DNA of 27,026 bases, taken from contig CAYTKU010000001.1 in the NCBI GenBank assembly GCA_964438795.1, positions 1-27,026 of the forward strand, given 5' to 3'. The translations under genes were made by a program, and so were the position numbers. The notes below the pieces were generated by a model, which saw nothing but the letters and a program-made list of their open reading frames with translations, did no database searches and had not been told where the DNA came from. Positions within the stretch are counted from its first letter, which is position 1, and each line of letters opens with the position of its first letter. This document shows, piece after piece, positions 3,771 through 19,181 of this stretch. This stretch comes from an uncultured Gammaproteobacteria bacterium (GTDB lineage Bacteria > Patescibacteriota > Patescibacteriia > Magasanikbacterales > UBA922).

Positions 3771-5801
3771 ATGTCAGAACAACCTCCTCATTTTCTTCCT
3801 ATGGAAGCACGCCTAAAATCTACTCAATTAGAACCTCGTACGAAAAGCGGTAGTGCATATGAACGTGCGGTTGCTGACGCATTACTCCAAGAAGATCACA
3901 GACCGGGCAGAATTGAAGAAGAGGAGGCAGAAATAGCTAGAAAAAAACAAACAGATGCCCCTGAGTTACTTATTGCTAGGAAAAAAAAAGCTGATAAACT
4001 TGCAGAAAGAAGAGCTGAACGAGAAAGACAAAACAGACAATTAGAACAGGAAGAAGCAGAAAGAAGAAATTTAGAATACCAAACAAAATCTGCAGAGGAA
4101 ACTCGATCTGCTCTCGCCGATGCACGTGCCCTCATTAATGAGGAGCCCGAAGTTAAGCACGCAGCCACATCAGTACATAATGCTCTTTCTGATGTACATA
4201 ATTTGCTATCTGATGAAACAGGAATTAGTGCAGTAAGAGGACTGCAAGATAGAAAGAGATCTGATGAGGAGATTGAAAAAGCCGGTGATATTCCAACCCT
4301 ACGAACACGGCACCGAAGAGTAGAAGATGCTCCTACTCGTATTTCAAACGACATGGCAAAAGATCGTGATGCAAGAGAGGCAAGGATAAAAGCAAAAGAT
4401 GAAGAACTTGATACGCAAGATAAAGAATCGCGTGCAGAACAAGCGGCACAGAAATTAAAATTGAGAGAAACTTTTAAACGTGTAAATGGGTTGATTCAAC
4501 TATTTGGAAGGGAATTATTGCAACAAAAATATAGTCTATCTATTCCAATGATCGAAGGTCTTTCTGAGGATGAAATTAATAAACTTGATAGGCGTCTCAA
4601 GGCAATTCAAAAAGAAGAAAATATTGAAATGGATCGTTTGTACCAAGAAGCTGAAGCTGATCGAACTAATCGAGCTGATAGAGACCGTCGTCAAACAAGT
4701 CAAGTAAAGACAAGTACTTATGAACCAAAACCACAAGAATCTATTATCGTAGATGATTTAGATGCGATGAAGAATGAAGAAGAAGTTGAAGCTTATGTAA
4801 GAGATAATTTTGATGCTCCTCTAGCTGAATCTGATAAGTTGATTGCTCAAGCAGAAAAACAAAAAGAAGAAGACGCTTTCTTTGAAGAACAAGCAAAAAG
4901 ACAGCAAGCCGAACGTAAAATAGCAAGAGAGATATCAGCCAGAGAAAAAAAAGGAGCAGAGCCTGTCAATTTAGCTGATTTACCTGAACTGCAACCAGAA
5001 CCAGTAGAATTAGCAAGGCCTCCTTATCAAGTAAGTAGACGGGAATTACGTAGAAATTTACATAACCCTTTGGATTTATCACCGAATTTTGTTAAGCCTG
5101 AATCTGATTTACAAGAAGAAGGAAACGACAGGATAAAAAAACCTGTTATTGATGCTACACGCAGAGATCCATCATCGGTTTATAGACTAGCAGGAGCAGA
5201 ATTACAAGAGCACCCAGAAAGAGTTCACGCACTTTCTGAGGAAGTGGAAAGAAGACAGGCCTGGGCTCTGCAAATACCAAGAATGAATCGAGCAGAGCTT
5301 ATCAACGCTGCTACAAGATTTGGTATTGATTTACGTGACCAAACTCCTCTGGGATTACACAACGCTACTCGTTTAATAAATTCAGGAACCGAGCGTGGGA
5401 AAATTTTTAGTATGTTATTCGACAGGTTTGTTCATGTAAATACTGAACAAAAGAGAGGTGAAAATGAAAAACAAGAACGAGTTAGAATAGCACGAGAACA
5501 AATAGAATCTGCGAGTGTTCAAATGCGCGATCTTCTAGAAAAAACCAGATCAATATTAACATTAGCACAACAACAAGAAATTCAACAAATTTTACTCCAA
5601 AAAGTTCAAGCCGAAAGAGTCGGAGATGTACCTAAAGCATTAGACTTGATAGAAACAGCAACAAATACGTTAAAACGATTTGAAAGACTCTACGAAGAGC
5701 TGCAAAGAACTGGTGCATTAAAAACCTCAACCCCACCAACAATCAAACCCCCAGGACTACTTTCACGAATCGGATCCTTTCTTGGATTCGGAAGAAAATA
5801 A
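3771..5801 (+). CDS. hypothetical E/R/K-rich coiled-coil protein (676 aa) with amphipathic C-terminal tail
   Basis: 2 kb ORF followed by a terminator; no TM or signal peptide; ends PPGLLSRIGSFLGFGRK. Confidence 0.85.
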   Translation: MSEQPPHFLPMEARLKSTQLEPRTKSGSAYERAVADALLQEDHRPGRIEEEEAEIARKKQTDAPELLIARKKKADKLAERRAERERQNRQLEQEEAERRNLEYQTKSAEETRSALADARALINEEPEVKHAATSVHNALSDVHNLLSDETGISAVRGLQDRKRSDEEIEKAGDIPTLRTRHRRVEDAPTRISNDMAKDRDAREARIKAKDEELDTQDKESRAEQAAQKLKLRETFKRVNGLIQLFGRELLQQKYSLSIPMIEGLSEDEINKLDRRLKAIQKEENIEMDRLYQEAEADRTNRADRDRRQTSQVKTSTYEPKPQESIIVDDLDAMKNEEEVEAYVRDNFDAPLAESDKLIAQAEKQKEEDAFFEEQAKRQQAERKIAREISAREKKGAEPVNLADLPELQPEPVELARPPYQVSRRELRRNLHNPLDLSPNFVKPESDLQEEGNDRIKKPVIDATRRDPSSVYRLAGAELQEHPERVHALSEEVERRQAWALQIPRMNRAELINAATRFGIDLRDQTPLGLHNATRLINSGTERGKIFSMLFDRFVHVNTEQKRGENEKQERVRIAREQIESASVQMRDLLEKTRSILTLAQQQEIQQILLQKVQAERVGDVPKALDLIETATNTLKRFERLYEELQRTGALKTSTPPTIKPPGLLSRIGSFLGFGRK

Positions 5802-5900: not shown

Positions 5901-7646
5901 TTATAATCTCTCCGCAATTTCCTTCACTACTCTCTGCATAAAAAGATCCTTTTCCATCTTCTCTTGTTCTTCTTGACCTCGTACACGAACCATGAGCGGT
6001 TCACCTGCGAGCTCTTTGTCACCGACAACGAGGACATAGGGAACTTTTGCTCCAGCCGCTTTACGGATTTTGTTTCCCACAGTTTCGTCCACACTGTCTA
6101 CTTCGACGCGAATTCCTGCAGCGAGAAGTTCTGCCTTGAGACTATTTGCACCAACCAAATGCTTGTCATTCGAGACAGGCAAAATTCGCACTTGGACTGG
6201 AGAGAGCCAAACAGGAAATGCTCCGGCATAGTGTTCGATCAAAACCCCCATAAATCGTTCAGGAGATCCGACAATTGCACGGTGAATCATAACTGGAGTT
6301 TTTTCTGTTCCATCTTGATCTGCATAGACCAGGCCAAATCGTCCTGGCATGTTGAAATCCAGCTGAATAGTGGAGATCTGCCATTCACGGCCAATAGAAT
6401 CTTTGGCCATGATATCCATCTTTGGACCATAAAAGGCTGCTTCTCCTTCGGCTTCTTTGAATTCAATGTTATTTTCTTGAAGCAATTTTCGCATGATAGT
6501 TTGGGCATTTTCCCAGAGAGCATCATCACCCAGATATTTTTCTTTTTCATTTGGATCACGGAGCGAGAGCCGAATCCAATAATTGAGCCCATAGGTCTGA
6601 AGCGCTTGTTTTACAACACCAAGCACTTGGTTGAACTCAGATTGAATTTGATCTTCCCGGCAAAAGATATGTCCATCATCCTGAGCAAAACAACGTAAAC
6701 GAGTAAGCCCAGAGAGTTCACCAGGGCGTTCATCCCGGTAAAGATTGGCAAAGTCAGCAAAACGAAGTGGCAAATCACGGTAACTGCGAGTCTGACTGGC
6801 ATAGATCTGTGTATGCTGTGGACAGTTCATGGGTTTGAGATAATAGGGTTCTTCACTATAGTGAGATTTTACTTCCAGCATGTCGTCTTTGTACTTGTCA
6901 TAATGCCCAGACACCTTAAATAACTCGGCTTTGTTCATGTTTGGTGTCTGCACTTCTTCAAAACCAATTTGACCATTGAGCTCACGAGAATATCCAATAA
7001 TCTGATTGCGAACAATACATCCTTTTGGAGTAAACAGAGGAAGTCCAGGCCCTACGAGATCAGAAAAAACAAAGAGTCCAAGTTCTTTGCCGAGCTTGCG
7101 GTGATCACGTTTTTTGGCTTCTTCGAGCATGGTCAAGTGGTTTTGGAGTTCTTCGGCAGAAGGAAAAGCTGTTCCATAGATACGAGTGAGCATCTTGTTG
7201 TTTTCATTTCCACGCCAGTAAGCACCTGCTACAGAGAGGAGCTTAAAATGCTTGAGATCTTCACTTGGATTTTCGCTGTGTCCACCTTTACAGAGGTCCG
7301 TAAAGTTTCCACAAGAATAAAAAGTCAACATTTTTCCTTCTTCGGAAAATTCAGTAATGAGTTCACATTTGTATTCATTGTCAGCAAAATATTGTTTCGC
7401 TTCGTCAATACTCACTTCCTTTTTTTCAAACCCTTTCCAAGATTTCACGGCTTCTCGCATTTTTTCTTCAATTTTGGCAAGATCATCTTCAGATATCTTT
7501 GTATCAAGAAAATCAAAATCATAATAAAAGCCATTTTCAATTGGTGGCCCAATGGTACGTTTGGCCTCAGGGTAAAGTTCCTGTACTGCCGCAGCCAAAA
7601 GGTGCGCACAGGAATGGCGTAGGTGTTCGAGTTGTTCTTTGTCCAT
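5901..7646 (-). CDS. thrS: threonine--tRNA ligase, short form lacking the N-terminal TGS domain
   Basis: Editing domain RHSCAH and FTDLCKGGH; Zn-binding KPMNCPQH; motif 2 YRDERPGELSGLTRLR; GEAAFYGPK; IHRAIVGSPERF; C-terminal anticodon-binding domain. Confidence 0.97.
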   Translation of the reverse strand: MDKEQLEHLRHSCAHLLAAAVQELYPEAKRTIGPPIENGFYYDFDFLDTKISEDDLAKIEEKMREAVKSWKGFEKKEVSIDEAKQYFADNEYKCELITEFSEEGKMLTFYSCGNFTDLCKGGHSENPSEDLKHFKLLSVAGAYWRGNENNKMLTRIYGTAFPSAEELQNHLTMLEEAKKRDHRKLGKELGLFVFSDLVGPGLPLFTPKGCIVRNQIIGYSRELNGQIGFEEVQTPNMNKAELFKVSGHYDKYKDDMLEVKSHYSEEPYYLKPMNCPQHTQIYASQTRSYRDLPLRFADFANLYRDERPGELSGLTRLRCFAQDDGHIFCREDQIQSEFNQVLGVVKQALQTYGLNYWIRLSLRDPNEKEKYLGDDALWENAQTIMRKLLQENNIEFKEAEGEAAFYGPKMDIMAKDSIGREWQISTIQLDFNMPGRFGLVYADQDGTEKTPVMIHRAIVGSPERFMGVLIEHYAGAFPVWLSPVQVRILPVSNDKHLVGANSLKAELLAAGIRVEVDSVDETVGNKIRKAAGAKVPYVLVVGDKELAGEPLMVRVRGQEEQEKMEKDLFMQRVVKEIAERL

Positions 7647-7707
7647 ATGACGAAAAAATTAAAAACTAAAATTACAAATTACACATATTGAAATTTCTTG
7701 GAAAAAT

Positions 7708-7838
7708 TTTTCGGAGATAACTTTTTGGGCACATTAGCGAAGTGGCCGGGCCGGTTCCGACGAAGTCGGAGAGGCCACGAGCTACGTAGTGAGCGAGCCG
7801 CTGGGCGAGCGAACGGCACAAAAAGTTATCTCCGAAAA
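7708..7838. repeat. 131 bp palindromic element (MITE/REPIN-like) with perfect 20 bp terminal inverted repeats in the thrS leader
   Basis: TTTTCGGAGATAACTTTTTG (7708-7727) / CAAAAAGTTATCTCCGAAAA (7819-7838); GC-rich core with nested hairpins GTGGCC..GGCCAC (7742-7778) and TCCGAC-gaa-GTCGGA (7756-7770). Confidence 0.8.
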
Positions 7839-7860
7839 TCTAAATGAAAATTCCAGACAC

Positions 7861-7920
7861 AAAAATAAAAAACCCCAGTATACGCTCTACCACTCAAAAG
7901 TGATAAATCATATACCGGGG
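7861..7920 (-). terminator. T-box attenuator terminator
   Basis: Minus strand CCCCGGTATA (7920-7911) pairs with TATACTGGGG (7882-7873), internal hairpin TATCACT/AGTGGTA, followed by TTTTTTATTTTT (7872-7861). Confidence 0.85.
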
Positions 7921-8036
7921 TCCTAATCCTTCGGTGTCACTCAGGACAAGAATTAAGACGGTTCCACCCGTAGTTTTACTTGAAATAGATTGTCTTGATA
8001 CTCACAGGGTTAGTATCCCCTGCTCCAAACGTATCT
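7861..8036 (-). ncRNA. T-box riboswitch (Thr) controlling thrS, with an apparently ultrashort Stem I
   Basis: Minus strand: T-box bulge TGGAACC (7966-7960) flanked by helix A1 CGGG (7970-7967)/CCCG (7919-7916) and 12 bp helix A2 GTCTTAATTCTT (7959-7948)/AAGGATTAGGAC (7931-7920); the 3' strand overlaps the terminator; putative Stem I 8035-7997 has apical loop GAU-ACU-AA. Confidence 0.85.
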
Positions 8037-8042
8037 GCTGCT

Positions 8043-8071
8043 AGATTACCGCAAAGCCAAAACTCTGTCAA
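8043..8071 (-). promoter_or_regulatory. sigma70-type promoter of the T-box/thrS transcript
   Basis: Minus strand TTGACA (8071-8066), 17 nt, TAATCT (8048-8043); predicted start near A8036, immediately before the first Stem I base. Confidence 0.75.
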
Positions 8072-8074
8072 ATT

Positions 8075-9295
8075 TTATTGAATAAACTTTATAGATTTAA
8101 TAGTATCATCATCTCCACCAGCTGAACAAATAGTTGAAAACCCATAGTTATATTTTTCTCCGAGAACAATAGTTTGACCACCTCCACAGAGAGCCTGCCA
8201 CTTGTAAGTAATCACTTCTTTCCCACCAATAACTGACTCGGTGATTTCTAGTCCAGCATGTAATTTCTCTGGTGAAGGGACATCCAAGGCTTCTAAACGT
8301 GAAAGAATTTGCTCTTTACTTTCCTTTGGCAAAATTTCCATCCATTCGTTCGCATCTACCCACGAAGCACACCCTTCTCCTGTCACAAGAATATCTCCAT
8401 AGAGAATCTTCTTATCTTTTTGATCATACGGATTAAGAATGTAGGTATCCCCTCCCCATAGAGGATTATACGGCAATTGGAGTTCTATACCATACTCTTG
8501 ACTGCGATAGGTTACTCTTTTTTCTGATAATTCATTATAGTTAGTGCGACCATCGAAAAATGAATACTGACACGCATCCGGCAGTAATTCTTTTGTAACA
8601 TCACTGTTGCCTCGAGTGATAGACAGTCGTTGCGGTGAAAGTTCCCACGGCATATCAACACTCTTTGATTGGTATCTACCACAAGGGAGTGAAGGAAATT
8701 GACACTCTCCCATTATTTCTAAAAGTCCATTCTCCAGCCAATTTATAGAACGTGAACCTGGGAGAAAATGTCGTTTATTGGTCTGAAGGTCATAAATAAC
8801 AGCACAAGATTCTTCCCAACAATCAGCCTGCAACAGTACAAATCGACCCTTTGGGGATAATTGCGCTTTGGTAAAAAAAACTTGATTCAAATCAATAGTG
8901 GCTAAACCATTTTCAATGGATTTGGAAATAGCCAGCTCAACTGCCTGATTTTTTGAAGAAAGATAATAAAAATCACCATAGGAAATACCACGAGAGTTTT
9001 TTCCCCGCTCCAAAAACATTATATTATTATCTATCTGAAGAAAATTAGGAGTTTTCCCTATATCAAGAAGTGTTTCAACAGACACAGGAACATTTTCTAC
9101 CGGGTTACTCGTCAATTTGTTTGGTGTTGAGGTGGTATCGACTGGATTTTTTATATTTTGAAGATCTTCTGTTTGATTCGTAGGAACAAAAACTGTCACT
9201 ATGTTTTGTTTTTCCGGATAAAGAAAATAACCACTAATTCCAGCAACAATAGCTACAACCAATACTAAAAATATATATTTATATTTCTCGAACAT
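8075..9295 (-). CDS. membrane-anchored extracytoplasmic protein (406 aa); possible partial beta-propeller plus PsbP-like C-terminal domain
   Basis: N-terminal TM (IFLVLVVAIVAGISGYFLY), T/N/P-rich linker, LSPKGRFVLL blade-like motif, closely spaced Cys pairs, C-terminal TYRSQEYGIELQLP..IGGKEVITY..IKSIKFI pattern. The ORF is secure; domain calls are by eye. Confidence 0.75.
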   Translation of the reverse strand: MFEKYKYIFLVLVVAIVAGISGYFLYPEKQNIVTVFVPTNQTEDLQNIKNPVDTTSTPNKLTSNPVENVPVSVETLLDIGKTPNFLQIDNNIMFLERGKNSRGISYGDFYYLSSKNQAVELAISKSIENGLATIDLNQVFFTKAQLSPKGRFVLLQADCWEESCAVIYDLQTNKRHFLPGSRSINWLENGLLEIMGECQFPSLPCGRYQSKSVDMPWELSPQRLSITRGNSDVTKELLPDACQYSFFDGRTNYNELSEKRVTYRSQEYGIELQLPYNPLWGGDTYILNPYDQKDKKILYGDILVTGEGCASWVDANEWMEILPKESKEQILSRLEALDVPSPEKLHAGLEITESVIGGKEVITYKWQALCGGGQTIVLGEKYNYGFSTICSAGGDDDTIKSIKFIQ

Positions 9296-9410: not shown

Positions 9411-9533
9411 AAAATCGATACATTTGGATGGAGATCGAGGCCGCAACGAGCATATGAGCGAGGCGTAGCCGGAGGCTACGGTGAACGAAATAGCGCAGTG
9501 AGAACGAAGATATACACCAAATTTATCGATTTT
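9411..9533. repeat. 123 bp palindromic intergenic element (copy A) abutting the stop codon of the 380 aa gene
   Basis: 17 bp terminal IR AAAATCGATACATTTGG / CCAAATTTATCGATTTT (1 mismatch); inner hairpin CGTAGCC-gga-GGCTACG (9464-9480). Confidence 0.75.
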
Positions 9534-10674
9534 ATTCTACTTCTTTTACAGTAACCTGAACATGGTCGGTAATATGAGGCACACTCTGCATCCAAGCTGG
9601 ATGAAACTGTACATCCACACTATGAACATGATCAAGAGTCAAGAGATACCTTCGAACCTCTTCTTTGTTTTTTCCAAAGAACATCGTACGATCAATTTGT
9701 TTACTCTGAGGATTGAGGGTGGCGACTCCATCATAAAAGAGATGAACCGTTGCTACCATTTTTTCTTTGTTGTATTCAGCAAAAGTAACCGTTGGATCTT
9801 TTTCATTTGTTTCAATGATTTCACTATTATCGATCGCGCGCTTGGCAAGCAAACTTTTTGCCAGAGTCGTCATTTCAGTATTGTCATAAAAAATTCCTAC
9901 CACTGTTCCAGAACCAATCAGATCAAAACTCGAAACCGTAGCTCCTACCTGTGCAGTCGAAGTAACATCATAGCTCTCTAAAGTAAATACTGCTTTTTTA
10001 TCCCCCAAACGTGCTCCCAAAACACTTTCACCTTGTTTTTGCAAAGCATCAGCAAATGAGCGTTTGGCTGATTCAAAATCATCTGAACCAAGAGATCCAA
10101 CCGTTTTCATACCACCAGACATAGGAGCCTCACTCATAGCATAGACTTGTTTTTGTCTTGCTTCATTGAGTCCTGGTATAGTAAATTTTGCTGGACCAAT
10201 ATTTCCTTCTTTTCCTGGTTTGTCTGCATAGACTTCAGCGACGATTTTGCCATTGGCAGGGACAGTCACTGCATTTTTGAGACGAAAGAGCACACCACCG
10301 TCAGAGAGCAAACGAGTCGTTGCCACCAATCCTTGAGCACTTGGAGAATCATTTTGAAGTGTTACATTGCCACCAGCAAGAGCAGGTTCTTCACGATTGC
10401 CCGTAACCTGAAATGATTTGGTCACACTCACAACCGTTGATGTTACCACTCCTTCAATATCACTTCCACCAGAAACAGATCCAATCTTTACATCAGTACT
10501 CACATCGACAGGTGTAGGTTTGGCCACAATAACAATTTCAGCTCTCTTTGAAGACATAAAAACAATGATACCGAGCAGTATCAACGTAATCACCAAAAAA
10601 GAAATGGCAATAATTTTGTAAAAACGAACTGGTTGCTGACTTGAAAGCGAGGTTTGATGGTGACGTGAAACCAT
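9532..10674 (-). CDS. single-pass membrane protein with baseplate J/gp47-like domain
   Basis: One N-terminal TM, then AGGNVTLQN..QGLVATTRLL..GVLFRLKNAVTVPA..VYADKPGKEGNIGPAKFTIPGL..VYA..MSGG, the pattern of CPR proteins annotated baseplate J/gp47 family (recognised by eye). Confidence 0.65.
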   Translation of the reverse strand: MVSRHHQTSLSSQQPVRFYKIIAISFLVITLILLGIIVFMSSKRAEIVIVAKPTPVDVSTDVKIGSVSGGSDIEGVVTSTVVSVTKSFQVTGNREEPALAGGNVTLQNDSPSAQGLVATTRLLSDGGVLFRLKNAVTVPANGKIVAEVYADKPGKEGNIGPAKFTIPGLNEARQKQVYAMSEAPMSGGMKTVGSLGSDDFESAKRSFADALQKQGESVLGARLGDKKAVFTLESYDVTSTAQVGATVSSFDLIGSGTVVGIFYDNTEMTTLAKSLLAKRAIDNSEIIETNEKDPTVTFAEYNKEKMVATVHLFYDGVATLNPQSKQIDRTMFFGKNKEEVRRYLLTLDHVHSVDVQFHPAWMQSVPHITDHVQVTVKEVE

Positions 10675-10869: not shown

Positions 10870-12591
10870 TTATTCGATGACACGAAACACTTCGTCTATA
10901 CTCGTAATCCCATCAAGCGCTTTCAAAATTCCATCCTGTACCATAGTAATCATACCATTTTCAATAGCAATACGTTCAATTTCATATTCAGAGACCTGAC
11001 CAGAGAGGACAATCTCTTCAATTTGCTTATTCATTACAAAAATTTCATAAATACCAAGACGTCCTTTGTACCCAATCTGGTTACAAGCACTACATCCAAC
11101 TCCTGTATAAAATTTCTTTGGCTTCAGCTCTGCTTCTTTTTGAACCGTTTCTGACATCGAAGCAAATACTTTTGCAACACGATCCATCTCATCCTGTGAA
11201 AGATTTGCTTCTTTTTTACATTCATTACAGAGTTTACGAAGTAAGCGCTGTCCAATTACACAATTGAGTGCTGGAGCAAGCAAAAATGGCTTTACACCCA
11301 TAGAGAGAAAGCGTGGAATAGCACCCGCAGCTCCATTTGTATGGATAGTAGAGAGAATCAAATGCCCAGTCAGAGCTGCCTGAATAGCAATATCGGCTGT
11401 TTCAAGATCACGGATTTCTCCAACCATGGCAATATCTGGATCTTGACGAAGCATAGAGCGAAGTCCTTTGGCAAATGTATAGCCGCGAGACATGTCGATT
11501 TGACTCTGATTAATACCTTCCATTTTATATTCTACTGGATCTTCGAGCGTCAAAATTTTAACTCCAGGTTGATTGAGAATATTCATCATGGCGTACAGCG
11601 TAGTGGTTTTACCACTTCCAGTTGGACCCGTCGTAATCACCATTCCATTTGGTCTTTCGATCTGACGTTTTACTTCTTCGAGTGCAGAACCACGAATACC
11701 CAAATCATCAAGAGACAATCCTTCACGATTTTGAACGAGCAGACGCATAACCACACTCTCGCCATAGACGGTTGGGAGTGTCGAGACACGTACATCGACG
11801 TCCCCACTTTTGAGCTTGATCGTATAGCGACCATCTTGCGGTTTATCATTGACATTGATTTTCAAAGAAGAAATCAATTTGATACGTGAAATTAAATTTT
11901 TGTAGGTTTCACGAACAAGAGTAGCAGCATCATGCAGTATTCCATCAAGGCGAAAACGCACCACAATCCCCTTTTCCTCGGCTTCAATATGGACATCTGA
12001 TGCACCAAGTTTGAGTCCAGCACCCAAAATTGAGGTCACAATCTCCGTGGCATTTTTACCCTGAATATTTTCTTGGAATGACGCAAAATCATTGACAGAA
12101 GCCTGTACTTGCTCCAGATCCTCTTCACGAATTTCCACATCTTTGGTCAGAGCCTTTACGGTCGGCAAAGTCAGATATAAACGCATAACACGATCAAAAC
12201 TTGACGGTGAAATAGTATAGAGAGCACCATTGGAATTATTTTTTTCAGCAACCGTTTTCATTAGCTGTTGCACTTCTTCCTGCGAAGGATCTATCGCACC
12301 AATACGAATTTCATCTTGATCGCAAAAAAAACAAACCGCACCGAGCCTTTCGGCTTCTTCTTGCGGAACCTGACGCAAAGCCTGCTGACTCACAGGAAAT
12401 TTTTCAAGTGAAATATAGGGAAAACCAGCCATACCCGCAAATCTCTGCGTTTCGACTTCTTTTTCCTTGTGTGCGACTTGTCCCATTTTGGCTTGAAATT
12501 TTTCTTCGACTTCAGAGGAAGAAATTTTCAAAACAGGTCTTGGGGGTATAGCCACATCATCAGTATTTTGCAAAGCAGAATTATCAGACAT
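10870..12591 (-). CDS. GspE/PilB family type II secretion / type IV pilus assembly ATPase
   Basis: T2SSE N-terminal domain, ASDVHIE, Walker A GPTGSGKTTT, Asp box LEDPVE, Walker B RQDPDIAMVGEIRD, His box GHLILSTIHTN, tetracysteine CNEC..CSAC. ATG 12591 preferred over GTG 12600. Confidence 0.93.
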   Translation of the reverse strand: MSDNSALQNTDDVAIPPRPVLKISSSEVEEKFQAKMGQVAHKEKEVETQRFAGMAGFPYISLEKFPVSQQALRQVPQEEAERLGAVCFFCDQDEIRIGAIDPSQEEVQQLMKTVAEKNNSNGALYTISPSSFDRVMRLYLTLPTVKALTKDVEIREEDLEQVQASVNDFASFQENIQGKNATEIVTSILGAGLKLGASDVHIEAEEKGIVVRFRLDGILHDAATLVRETYKNLISRIKLISSLKINVNDKPQDGRYTIKLKSGDVDVRVSTLPTVYGESVVMRLLVQNREGLSLDDLGIRGSALEEVKRQIERPNGMVITTGPTGSGKTTTLYAMMNILNQPGVKILTLEDPVEYKMEGINQSQIDMSRGYTFAKGLRSMLRQDPDIAMVGEIRDLETADIAIQAALTGHLILSTIHTNGAAGAIPRFLSMGVKPFLLAPALNCVIGQRLLRKLCNECKKEANLSQDEMDRVAKVFASMSETVQKEAELKPKKFYTGVGCSACNQIGYKGRLGIYEIFVMNKQIEEIVLSGQVSEYEIERIAIENGMITMVQDGILKALDGITSIDEVFRVIE

Positions 12592-12599
12592 ACCAATCA

Positions 12600-13607
12600 C
12601 TATTTTTTATTTCTAAAAGGAATAAACCACGAAAGATGATGAACAATACGACTTTCGATACCATGACTGTGCATTTTGCTAAAAAGATACGTCCACACTG
12701 AGGTCGTAATCAGCGTAAAAAAAGATCCGAGAACAACCAGATAGGCAACAAAACAAAAAATACCACTTATTCCCATAAAAAACCAAAGGTAGCCATTTGT
12801 AATGGTCTCAGAAAAGAGCACACCGAGAAGAAGAGGAGAGAGAAAGACTCCTCCACCAACCACTGCAAGTACTGCGACCAGGATATTGGCCATCAAAATC
12901 ACAAAACCCACTTCAAACGACACAAGAAGATGATTTTTAAACAAAATCCACGCATTTTTGAGCGCCTCCCAAAGTTTGTATTCTTCTATCACAATATAGC
13001 CCACAGTATAGATAGAAAGACACGAGAGGATAAATCCCAAAACAACAGAAACGCACAAAATAATAACAAGAGAAAGAGTACTCACAGAGGACGTTTGCAA
13101 AAGCGCATGCATAGTCGCTCGACTAATAAGTATAGTAAGCAGTATAATCACGCTTTTGCGAAAAAAATGGACCGCAAAGAGTCTCCAAAAATGATTGATT
13201 CCAGATTGCCAGGCTCTCCCAACATCCACAACCGTCTTGGCTCTGAGCTTGTGCCCCGTGATATAGACAAGAGCAGCCTGAGAAACAAGGGCCAAAAACA
13301 AAAATAAAGCAAAAATACCAAACAAAATCACCCACATCCAAATACCCAACACCCAGGTATCCAGTGGGAGGGTAAGAGAAGTAAAAAAAGAAACAGATGA
13401 AGACAAAATAGAAGGAAGATTGCCCCATGATTCATGAGCAGTCCCCTGTTCAAGTGCACTAAAAAATCTCGTCACAAATTCGAGTAGGCCCATTTGACCC
13501 AAAAAAGTCGCAAAAAGTCCAAGGGGCCAGAGAATTTTGTGTTCAACCAAAACACGCCATGCATGATGAAATGCTTGTTTATAGGTAGGTTCTTTGTGCA
13601 AAAGCAT
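12600..13607 (-). CDS. polytopic membrane protein of unknown function (335 aa)
   Basis: About 7-8 hydrophobic segments; its TAG stop (12602-12600) lies 8 nt before the ATPase ATG. Confidence 0.8.
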   Translation of the reverse strand: MLLHKEPTYKQAFHHAWRVLVEHKILWPLGLFATFLGQMGLLEFVTRFFSALEQGTAHESWGNLPSILSSSVSFFTSLTLPLDTWVLGIWMWVILFGIFALFLFLALVSQAALVYITGHKLRAKTVVDVGRAWQSGINHFWRLFAVHFFRKSVIILLTILISRATMHALLQTSSVSTLSLVIILCVSVVLGFILSCLSIYTVGYIVIEEYKLWEALKNAWILFKNHLLVSFEVGFVILMANILVAVLAVVGGGVFLSPLLLGVLFSETITNGYLWFFMGISGIFCFVAYLVVLGSFFTLITTSVWTYLFSKMHSHGIESRIVHHLSWFIPFRNKK

Positions 13608-19098: not shown

Positions 19099-19181
19099 TG
19101 TCGCAGGCGGGGATCGAACCCGCAAGACCTTACGGCCAAGGGATTTTAAGTCCCTCGTGTATACCATTCCACCACTGCGAC
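19099..19181 (-). tRNA. tRNA-Leu, anticodon TAA, CCA end not encoded
   Basis: Acceptor GTCGCAG/CTGCGAC plus discriminator A; D-arm GTGGAATGGTATACAC; anticodon stem AGGGA/TCCCT with loop CT-TAA-AA (anticodon 19148-19146); long variable arm; T-arm GCGGG-TTCGATC-CCCGC; followed by CAA rather than CCA. Confidence 0.97.

What the first reader, a model, noticed from the sequence alone, without database searches (positions are those of the whole stretch)
7861..8071. Miniaturised transcriptional T-box riboswitch with an apical-loop Thr specifier upstream of thrS
Seen: a TTGACA-17-TAATCT promoter places +1 near 8036. A 39 nt hairpin follows directly: GAUAC/GUAUC base stem, an asymmetric loop with tandem G-A/A-G positions (GA 8025-8024 and GA 8003-8002, K-turn-like with a 5 nt bulge), a G-U plus CAGGG/CCCUG stem, and the 8 nt apical loop GAU-ACU-AA, where ACU is a Thr codon followed by a purine. 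Only 26 unstructured nt separate it from a textbook antiterminator (UGGAACC bulge, 4 bp A1, extended 12 bp A2) that is mutually exclusive with a strong terminator. Established: canonical T-boxes have a roughly 100 nt Stem I with an internal specifier loop and distal interdigitated T-loops. Ultrashort Stem I with an apical specifier is known from actinobacterial ileS T-boxes, which act on translation and depend on Stem II and IIA/B. UGGA matches a U73 discriminator, as in the Bacillus thrS T-box. Inference: this is ultrashort, transcriptional, Thr-specific, apparently without Stem II/IIA-B, and in a probable CPR genome, a combination I do not know to be described. Caveat: loop GAUACU can alternatively pair with AGUAUC (8002-7997), giving a pseudoknot that would hide the specifier.
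Basis: partly seen in the sequence, partly recalled or inferred. Interest (0 to 1): 0.88.

Follow-up and report, generated by a model that had tools for sequence, protein, structure and literature searches.

The report
Minimal threonine T-box leader of thrS
The RNA leader of the threonyl-tRNA synthetase gene in this tiny-genome (Magasanikbacteria, candidate phyla radiation) bacterium looks like a real tRNA-sensing T-box transcription switch. It is stripped to one small codon-presenting hairpin plus the tRNA 3'-end sensor, and it lacks every part that described T-box classes use to grip the tRNA.

Summary
It comprises a 39-nt hairpin (8035-7997) with ACU in an 8-nt end loop, a 26-nt unstructured linker, an antiterminator with the UGGAACC bulge, and a mutually exclusive terminator. 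thrS lies downstream.

- Four related genomes and one metagenome contig keep the same mini hairpin. One stem pair changes on both sides, and the loop codon changes only synonymously (ACU/ACC).
- tRNA-Thr genes of a same-genus genome have U73, which matches UGGA.
- In 240 genomes of the order the T-box core sits before thrS (102 sampled leaders), glyS (31) and ileS (16). Short-leader end loops carry ACN, GGN or AUC to match the gene.
- Other thrS leaders of the order have longer Stem I forms. One long form aligns end to end with Rfam's T-box model, with Stem II and Stem III already missing.
- Mini forms stand at three or more separate places in a ThrRS tree, so the upper Stem I was lost repeatedly.

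Rfam's model misses the window. The leader fits none of the four published T-box classes, and I found no paper on T-boxes in these bacteria. This scan has reported similar minimal T-boxes on other DNA many times. Function is inferred only; there is no RNA or binding evidence.

The parts
8043..8071 (-). Promoter: -35 TTGACA (8071-8066), 17-nt spacer, -10 TAATCT (8048-8043); predicted +1 near 8036
   Evidence: Read. The -35 hexamer and its spacing are conserved in all five mini leaders and in most leaders of the order. The -10 matches only 3 of 6 positions and was not listed by the consensus scan.
7997..8035 (-). Ultrashort Stem I: 5-bp base helix, GA/GA inner loop (K-turn-like), 6-bp specifier helix, 8-nt end loop
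   Evidence: MFE -13.4 kcal/mol, z -3.0. All cells pair in the five relatives, with one pair changed on both sides and three on one side. It lines up with the base of longer Stem I forms in related leaders.
8010..8017 (-). End loop GAUACUAA with specifier ACU (8014-8012) and the following purine A8011
   Evidence: The loop is ACU or ACC in the five mini leaders. ACN followed by a purine is found in thrS loops across the order. glyS loops carry GGN and ileS loops carry AUC.
7971..7996 (-). Single-stranded linker; holds the conserved AAGACAAU and AAGUA motifs; no Stem II, IIA/B or III
   Evidence: MFE 0. The middle is variable and the ends are conserved in alignment A1. In Rfam's alignment of long-form relative L290, Stem II and Stem III are deleted.
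7916..7970 (-). Antiterminator: A1 (4 bp), 7-nt T-box bulge UGGAACC (7966-7960), A2 (12 bp)
   Evidence: One search gives -16.9 kcal/mol. 96.7% of cells pair in A1, against 29-46% when the partners are slid. The core GGGUGGAACCGUC occurs in 181 of 240 genomes of the order.
7861..7920 (-). Intrinsic terminator hairpin (7920-7873) and U-run; shares 7920-7916 with the antiterminator
   Evidence: -28.6 kcal/mol, z -7.7. 98.1% of cells pair, with 4 terminator pairs changed on both sides.
7708..7838 (.). Inverted-repeat element inserted between the terminator and thrS; not part of the switch
   Evidence: The arms 7708-7730 and 7816-7838 are 96% complementary. A form that skips 199 nt (7648 to 7848) stands in two public DNA runs, so the insertion is polymorphic.
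5901..7646 (-). thrS (threonyl-tRNA synthetase, 581 aa), the regulated gene
   Evidence: Pfam finds tRNA_SAD, tRNA-synt_2b and HGTP_anticodon. It is the only ThrRS found in the 69%-complete assembly.

Best explanation
This is a tRNA-Thr-sensing transcription attenuator of the T-box family in a minimal form.

Proposed steps:
1. Transcription starts near 8036.
2. The first 39 nt fold into a bent hairpin that shows the Thr codon ACU in its end loop.
3. The anticodon of tRNA-Thr(GGU) pairs with ACU (A-U36, C-G35, U-G34), and A8011 stacks below.
4. When the polymerase has made the T-box bulge, the free 3' end UCCA of uncharged tRNA-Thr pairs with UGGA (7966-7963). This holds the weaker antiterminator (-16.9 kcal/mol) against the stronger terminator (-28.6 kcal/mol), and transcription runs on into thrS.
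5. Charged tRNA cannot do this. The terminator then forms and transcription stops at the U-run.

Shown here: the sequence elements, their mutual exclusion, their conservation, the match of codon to gene, and the match of the bulge to the discriminator base.

Inferred: tRNA binding, the response to charging, and that two short base-paired contacts suffice without the tRNA-elbow platform, Stem II or Stem III. A helper factor cannot be excluded.
For: Anatomy and energies:
-.

Conservation:
- Five mini leaders share only 61-85% ThrRS identity, yet they keep Stem I (100% of cells paired, one compensatory pair), the antiterminator and the terminator. All three beat the slid controls.
- The only loop change among them is the synonymous ACU/ACC.

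Match to tRNA:
- tRNA-Thr(GGU) and tRNA-Thr(UGU) of same-genus genomes have U73.

Match of codon to gene across the order:
- Core matches precede 102 thrS and 31 glyS (both UGGA) and 16 ileS (UGGU).
- In MFE-predicted first hairpin loops, ACN plus purine occurs in 22 of 36 short thrS leaders, GGN in 17 of 26 glyS leaders and AUH plus purine in 7 of 13 ileS leaders. Cross-matches are almost absent (seen by eye).

Homology to canonical T-boxes:
- Long-form thrS leader L290 aligns to RF00230 over model positions 1-219 (30.9 bits) and has the AGAGA bay.
- ileS leader L305 scores 38.6 bits.

Signs that the mini form is in use:
- In L002-L004 the terminator lies directly before the thrS start, so expression of this essential gene needs readthrough.
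- Only one thrS was found in the window's own incomplete assembly.
- Mini forms recur at three or more places in the ThrRS tree.
Against: - No experiment and no RNA reads cover the leader.
- Rfam RF00230 gives no hit on the window even at E up to 10.
- The published view is that transcriptional T-boxes need the long Stem I with its tRNA-elbow platform. It also holds that short Stem I forms bind tRNA barely at all without Stem II (PMC7583486; PMC10482949).
- No tRNA-Thr gene is assembled in this 69%-complete genome, so the tRNA match rests on congeners.
- ACU needs a G-U wobble with GGU.
- The -10 hexamer is weak.
- Only five sequences share the exact architecture, so covariation within Stem I is thin: one compensatory pair.
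Confidence: 0.8

Rival explanations
1. Decaying relic. The upper Stem I was lost, tRNA can no longer be bound, and the leader is only a leaky terminator. thrS would be expressed by basal readthrough or from another promoter.
For: - The parts thought necessary for tRNA capture are absent.
- In the window a 131-nt inverted-repeat element lies between terminator and thrS and could carry a promoter.
- A weak promoter-like match lies inside the terminator.
Against: - The loop codon, the UGGA bulge, both alternative structures and the promoter are kept in five diverged genomes, with compensatory changes.
- The same reduction recurs in other lineages and keeps ACC in the loop.
- In L002-L004, and in the variant without the inserted element, the terminator abuts thrS.
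- Nearly all glyS leaders of the order use the same mini design.
Confidence: 0.08
2. Specifier-independent sensor. The antiterminator senses any uncharged tRNA with U73 through UGGA. The hairpin would be only a structural or protein-binding element (K-turn) whose loop does not read the anticodon.
For: - The hairpin has a K-turn-like GA motif that could bind an L7Ae-type protein.
- A three-base kissing contact alone is weak.
Against: - The loop triplet follows the downstream gene across thrS, glyS and ileS leaders.
- The only loop change among the mini leaders is synonymous for Thr.
- glyS and thrS both use UGGA, so specificity must come from somewhere else.
Confidence: 0.05
3. The true transcript starts further upstream, and a full-length Stem I overlaps the end of the upstream gene. 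The 39-nt hairpin would then be a later stem.
For: - The -10 hexamer is weak.
- There is no transcript data.
Against: - The upstream ORF runs to 8075.
- Its 3' end is coding sequence conserved in relatives and ends just before the conserved TTGACA.
- No T-box Stem I motif and no Rfam hit lies upstream.
- The hairpin lines up with the base and specifier part of longer Stem I forms in related leaders, whose promoters sit in the same relative place.
Confidence: 0.03

Closest known systems
Class II (glyQS-type) transcriptional T-boxes, e.g. Bacillus subtilis glyQS (as defined in PMC10482949)
   Same: It acts on a transcription terminator. It has no Stem II or IIA/B, and a single-stranded linker joins Stem I to the 3'-end sensor. 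The UGGN bulge logic is the same.
   Different: [quoted passage not shown] The window has none of these.
Class III ('ultrashort Stem I') ileS T-boxes of Actinobacteria, e.g. Nocardia farcinica and Mycobacterium (Sherwood 2015; PMC10482949, PMC7583486)
   Same: Stem I is short, has no elbow platform, and carries the specifier in the end loop.
   Different: Class III requires Stem II (S-turn) and the IIA/B pseudoknot for tRNA binding, is Ile-specific and mostly controls translation. The window has a bare linker, a Thr codon, an 8-nt loop and a terminator.
Class I thrS T-box of Bacillus subtilis (Rfam RF00230)
   Same: It regulates the same gene, has a Thr specifier and a UGGA bulge for U73, and switches between a terminator and an antiterminator.
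   Different: Class I has the full Stem I, Stem II, IIA/B and Stem III. The window scores nothing against RF00230.
Longer thrS T-boxes of the same order (loci L008, L290, L005, L010) and mini glyS/ileS T-boxes of the same order
   Same: They share the T-box core, the linker motifs, the promoter placement and the lack of Stem II and III (thrS). glyS leaders share the end-loop specifier design.
   Different: The long and intermediate thrS forms hold ACC in an internal loop below a further helix. glyS mini forms keep Stem III. ileS mini forms keep Stem II and IIA/B.
Minimal T-box leaders reported earlier by this scan in other CPR genomes (Thr, Gly, Ser, Pro, Val, Asp, His, Ile)
   Same: They have an end-loop specifier plus a terminator, are missed by Rfam, and have no published description that was found.
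   Different: They are on other DNA. Here Stem III is also missing, and related genomes hold the longer forms of the same leader.

Membership tests
T-box leader family (tRNA-sensing riboswitch) | Conserved T-box sequence forming a 7-nt bulge UGGNACC between helices A1 and A2, with N complementary to the tRNA discriminator base | tested here: met
   UGGAACC lies at 7966-7960 between a 4-bp A1 and a 12-bp A2. tRNA-Thr of same-genus genomes has U73. ileS leaders of relatives have UGGU.
T-box leader family (tRNA-sensing riboswitch) | Antiterminator mutually exclusive with a downstream terminator (or sequestrator) | tested here: met
   Positions 7920-7916 are shared. The energies are -16.9 against -28.6 kcal/mol. 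Both structures are kept in five relatives.
T-box leader family (tRNA-sensing riboswitch) | Specifier codon in Stem I that matches the amino acid of the regulated gene, followed by a purine | tested here: met
   ACU-A lies in the loop before thrS and is ACC in L002. The codon follows the gene in glyS and ileS leaders.
T-box leader family (tRNA-sensing riboswitch) | GA motif (K-turn) at the base of Stem I | tested here: inconclusive
   GA at 8025-8024 faces GA at 8003-8002, and the pattern fits the RF00230 consensus at that place (alignment). The bulge is 4-5 nt rather than 3, and no structure test was possible.
T-box leader family (tRNA-sensing riboswitch) | Reaches the Rfam RF00230 gathering score (93 bits) | tested here: not met
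   There is no hit at E up to 10 in the window or the genome. Relatives score at most 38.6 and 30.9 bits.
T-box leader family (tRNA-sensing riboswitch) | Uncharged cognate tRNA raises readthrough | not testable with these tools
   This needs in vitro transcription or a reporter assay.
Class I/II transcriptional T-box | Long Stem I with distal double T-loop platform (AG bay and distal loop) that stacks on the tRNA elbow | tested here: not met
   Stem I ends in the specifier loop after 6 bp. The AGAGA bay is present in long-form relative L290.
Class I/II transcriptional T-box | Stem III directly upstream of the antiterminator | tested here: not met
   The linker 7996-7971 has MFE 0. Stem III is also deleted in the Rfam alignment of L290.
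Class III (ultrashort Stem I) T-box | Short Stem I without the elbow platform, with the specifier in the end loop | tested here: met
   The loop is 8 nt, against the 5-6 nt stated for class III.
Class III (ultrashort Stem I) T-box | Stem II with S-turn plus IIA/B pseudoknot, required for tRNA binding | tested here: not met
   There is only a 26-nt unstructured linker. By contrast, the ileS leaders of relatives do align to Stem II and IIA/B.

The most novel reading that the evidence does not exclude
This would be a fifth T-box architecture. It would be a natural co-transcriptional tRNA sensor that works with only two short base-paired contacts, codon-anticodon in a hairpin tip and UGGA-UCCA in the bulge. 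It would have no elbow platform, no Stem II or IIA/B and no Stem III. It would have arisen repeatedly by deletion of the upper Stem I in Magasanikbacteria. Orthologous long, intermediate and mini leaders exist in closely related genomes and would form a ready-made natural deletion series.
Probability: 0.55. Interest if true: 0.85.

Novelty: new variant of a known kind. Interest (0 to 1): 0.7.

Why it matters
T-box reviews state that transcriptional T-boxes need the long Stem I to catch tRNA fast enough. They also state that short Stem I forms depend on Stem II (PMC7583486, PMC10482949). A conserved leader that drives a terminator with neither part, and without Stem III, challenges that rule. 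It also sets a lower bound of about 120 nt, from the predicted start near 8036 to the end of the antiterminator at 7916, for a tRNA charge sensor.

Relatives hold long, intermediate and mini versions of the same thrS leader. The contribution of each lost part can therefore be measured with natural sequences.

Standard annotation with Rfam misses these leaders. T-box regulation of thrS, glyS and ileS in candidate phyla radiation bacteria is therefore under-counted.

Tried and rejected
- Rfam at the gathering threshold and at the E-value threshold gave no T-box hit in the window or the genome.
- No tRNA-Thr is assembled in the window's genome. I used tRNA genes of same-genus genomes, found by pattern and BLAST.
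- A metagenome scan with a 15-mer from the leader gave mostly chance matches and one true mini leader, L191.
- Public RNA runs gave no coverage of the leader, so there are no 5' or 3' ends.
- I considered pairing of linker AAGAC with GUCUU of A2 as an anti-antiterminator. I dropped it by eye because the two do not vary together in L006 and L007 (sequences).
- My regular-expression classification of Stem I types failed for about half of the leaders. I used leader length instead.
- I first read the presence of a long form (G002) in the same genus as proof of a deletion within the genus. The ThrRS tree does not follow the genus, and the AU test gives p = 0.033 against the four mini rows forming one clade. 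The order of events there is therefore unresolved.

Full report
**What is there**

On the minus strand the upstream ORF ends at 8075. It is followed by TTGACA (8071-8066), a 17-nt spacer and TAATCT (8048-8043).

From about 8036 the RNA folds into a 39-nt hairpin:
- a 5-bp base helix (8035-8031 with 8001-7997);
- an inner loop with GA facing GA;
- a G-U pair plus a 5-bp helix;
- the 8-nt loop GAUACUAA, with ACU at 8014-8012.

The hairpin alone has -13.4 kcal/mol, z -3.0.

The next 26 nt have no fold at all (MFE 0).

Then comes the T-box core: a 4-bp A1, the bulge UGGAACC (7966-7960) and a 12-bp A2. Together these give -16.9 kcal/mol.

A terminator follows (7920-7873 plus a U-run; -28.6 kcal/mol, z -7.7). 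It reuses 7920-7916, so the two structures exclude each other.

The next gene, 7646-5901, is ThrRS. It is the only ThrRS found in this 596-kb, 69%-complete assembly.

The consensus scans list neither the promoter nor the terminator. The -10 hexamer matches only 3 of 6 positions. The terminator stem has an unpaired position inside it, which is probably why the scan missed it. I rest on conservation and folding energy instead.

Contigs from independent public DNA runs carry 7859-8076 without a single difference.

**Who it belongs to**

The closest ThrRS genes in public genomes are from Candidatus Magasanikbacteria/Magasanikiibacteriota, part of the candidate phyla radiation.

Rfam's T-box model finds nothing in the window or the genome, even at E up to 10.

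**Relatives with the same mini leader**

Three same-genus genomes (loci L002, L003, L004) and one metagenome contig (L191) carry the same leader before thrS. Their ThrRS proteins are only 61-85% identical to the window's.

In the alignment (A1):
- The promoter hexamer TTGACA, the hairpin, the T-box core and the terminator are kept.
- The loop is GAUACUAA in four and GAUACCAA in one. That change is synonymous only in the ACN frame.
- Stem I pairs in 100% of cells. One pair changes on both sides (C-G to U-A) and three change on one side.
- The antiterminator structure pairs in 96.7% of cells and the terminator structure in 98.1%. With slid partners the figures are 29-57%.

Five related sequences make a small sample. 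The covariation is consistent but thin.

**The tRNA**

The window's genome has no tRNA-Thr assembled.

In same-genus genomes, tRNA-Thr(GGU) and tRNA-Thr(UGU) both end in U73-CCA. That is the complement of UGGA. GGU reads ACC directly and ACU with a G-U wobble.

**The wider order**

The core GGGUGGNACCGYC occurs in 181 of 240 genomes of the order. The reversed control pattern is rare.

I fetched about 180 of these places. Of 175 core matches, 102 precede thrS and 31 precede glyS, all with UGGA. Sixteen precede ileS, all with UGGU. The rest look like chance matches.

I measured thrS leader length from the -10 hexamer to the core. It falls into three groups: 9 at 65-73 nt, about 45 at 81-125 nt and about 42 at 129-169 nt.

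- **Long forms.** They have an internal-loop specifier (GGUACCAC) under a further helix with an AGAGA bay. One of them, L290, aligns to RF00230 over the whole model (30.9 bits). Stem II and Stem III are both deleted in that alignment.
- **Intermediate forms.** They keep only a short helix above the specifier.
- **Mini forms.** They end in the specifier loop.

The ancestral thrS T-box of this order therefore already lacked Stem II and Stem III. The window has in addition lost everything above the specifier.

**Does the loop codon follow the gene?**

- By eye, the glyS leaders with a recognisable promoter (26) have the same mini Stem I in almost every case, with GGC or GGA in the end loop. They also have a Stem III.
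- ileS leaders have AUC in a 7-nt end loop. They align to Rfam's Stem II and IIA/B (38.6 bits).
- In an automatic count of the first predicted hairpin loop, ACN plus purine occurs in 22 of 36 short thrS leaders, GGN in 17 of 26 glyS leaders and AUH plus purine in 7 of 13 ileS leaders. The few cross-matches are largely overlaps such as AUUG inside AUUGGC.
- Among thrS loops, ACN is the only frame shared by all. UAC fails in L022, L285, L014 and L016.

**Repeated loss**

Mini thrS leaders occur in four genera:
- the window's genus;
- a second genus of the same family (L328, L331, L332), whose congeners L329 and L330 have the intermediate form with near-identical flanks;
- two genera of another family. 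L276 has congeners L275, L277 and L278 with the intermediate form. The fourth is L302.

On a ThrRS tree the mini label needs at least four changes. It is more clustered than in every one of 500 label shuffles (mean 7.8 changes).

The tree does not follow the genus assignment. The four mini rows of the window's genus are not one clade (AU p = 0.033, group named after seeing the tree). I therefore do not claim that the deletion happened inside the genus. I claim only that there are three or more separate origins.

**How it most likely works**

It works as in any transcriptional T-box, but with only two contacts: codon-anticodon at the hairpin tip and UGGA with the uncharged 3' end. The steps are listed under the best explanation.

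The sequence logic and its conservation are shown. Binding, charge sensing and sufficiency of the two contacts are inferred. A helper protein, for example one that binds the K-turn, cannot be excluded.

**Comparison with what is known**

PMC10482949 defines four classes:
- Class I: long Stem I with elbow platform plus Stem II.
- Class II: the same without Stem II; Gly-specific.
- Class III: short Stem I with end-loop specifier; needs Stem II; mostly translational; ileS.
- Class IV: intermediate Stem I plus Stem II.

PMC7583486 states that transcriptional T-boxes generally require the long Stem I. It also states that truncated Stem I forms barely bind tRNA without Stem II.

The window combines the class III Stem I with the class II linker. 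It lacks Stem III, is Thr-specific and ends in a terminator, so it fits none of the four classes.

Full-text searches for T-box together with candidate phyla radiation names found nothing. The TBDB paper does not mention these phyla.

**Earlier work of this scan**

Similar minimal T-boxes were reported by earlier agents on other DNA many times: 150 notes in at least 143 genomes. Several are thrS leaders of other candidate phyla radiation lineages. This is therefore not the scan's first sighting.

New here are three things:
- Stem III is missing as well.
- There is an order-wide count by gene.
- Long, intermediate and mini orthologues exist side by side.

**Limits**

- There is no transcript or binding evidence.
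- The tRNA match rests on congeners.
- Covariation rests on few sequences.
- Stem I types were assigned by leader length and by eye.

Noticed in passing
window 7708-7838 (arms 7708-7730 and 7816-7838): An inverted-repeat element is inserted between the T-box terminator and the thrS start. Two public DNA runs also hold a form that skips 199 nt (7648 to 7848). Depth over 7774-7807 is several-fold higher, so it looks like a mobile, repeated element. A different inverted-repeat element sits at the same place in L008.
   Followed up: partly
L305, L306, L308 (ileS leaders of same-family genomes): These ileS T-boxes have a 7-nt end loop holding AUC, Stem II and IIA/B (RF00230 38.6 bits on L305), a UGGU bulge and a U-run after the switch. 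They may be a transcriptional version of the actinobacterial class III design. The geometry of their terminator was not worked out.
   Followed up: partly
L405, L363, L354, L338 and about 20 more glyS loci: By eye, almost all sampled glyS T-boxes of the order have an ultrashort Stem I (K-turn-like base, 5-bp helix, GGC or GGA in the end loop). Most have a Stem III hairpin just before the antiterminator.
   Followed up: partly
L279-L289, L013, L022, L030, L343, L346: A third thrS Stem I design was seen. A GGYGAUUGA...CUAAGCC base encloses a hairpin with a 7-nt CUACCAA loop plus one or two further small hairpins, which looks like a multi-branch junction.
   Followed up: no
window 7996-7989 and the same place in most thrS and glyS leaders of the order: A conserved motif (AAGACAAU, or ACAAAUU) lies directly after the 3' strand of Stem I. 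It has no partner that varies with it. Its role is unexplained.
   Followed up: partly
L012, L018, L281, L283, L292, L293, L302, L303: In several relatives the first ORF after the T-box is a protein of about 180 aa (N-terminus ...ITLRP...), with thrS behind it. I did not test that.
   Followed up: no
ThrRS tree of 78 loci: The ThrRS tree does not follow the genus and family codes. For example, G173 and G002 fall away from their congeners. This hints at exchange of thrS, perhaps with its leader, among Magasanikbacteria.
   Followed up: partly
window 8075-9295, 9532-10674, 3771-5801, 10870-12600: Three large ORFs around the leader (406, 380 and 676 aa) have no Pfam or NCBIfam match. 10870-12600 is a PilB/GspE-type secretion ATPase. 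The 406-aa ORF upstream of the leader keeps its place before thrS in relatives.
   Followed up: no
window 19099-19181 (-): A tRNA-Leu(UAA) gene lies here. It is the only Rfam hit of the window at the gathering threshold.
   Followed up: no
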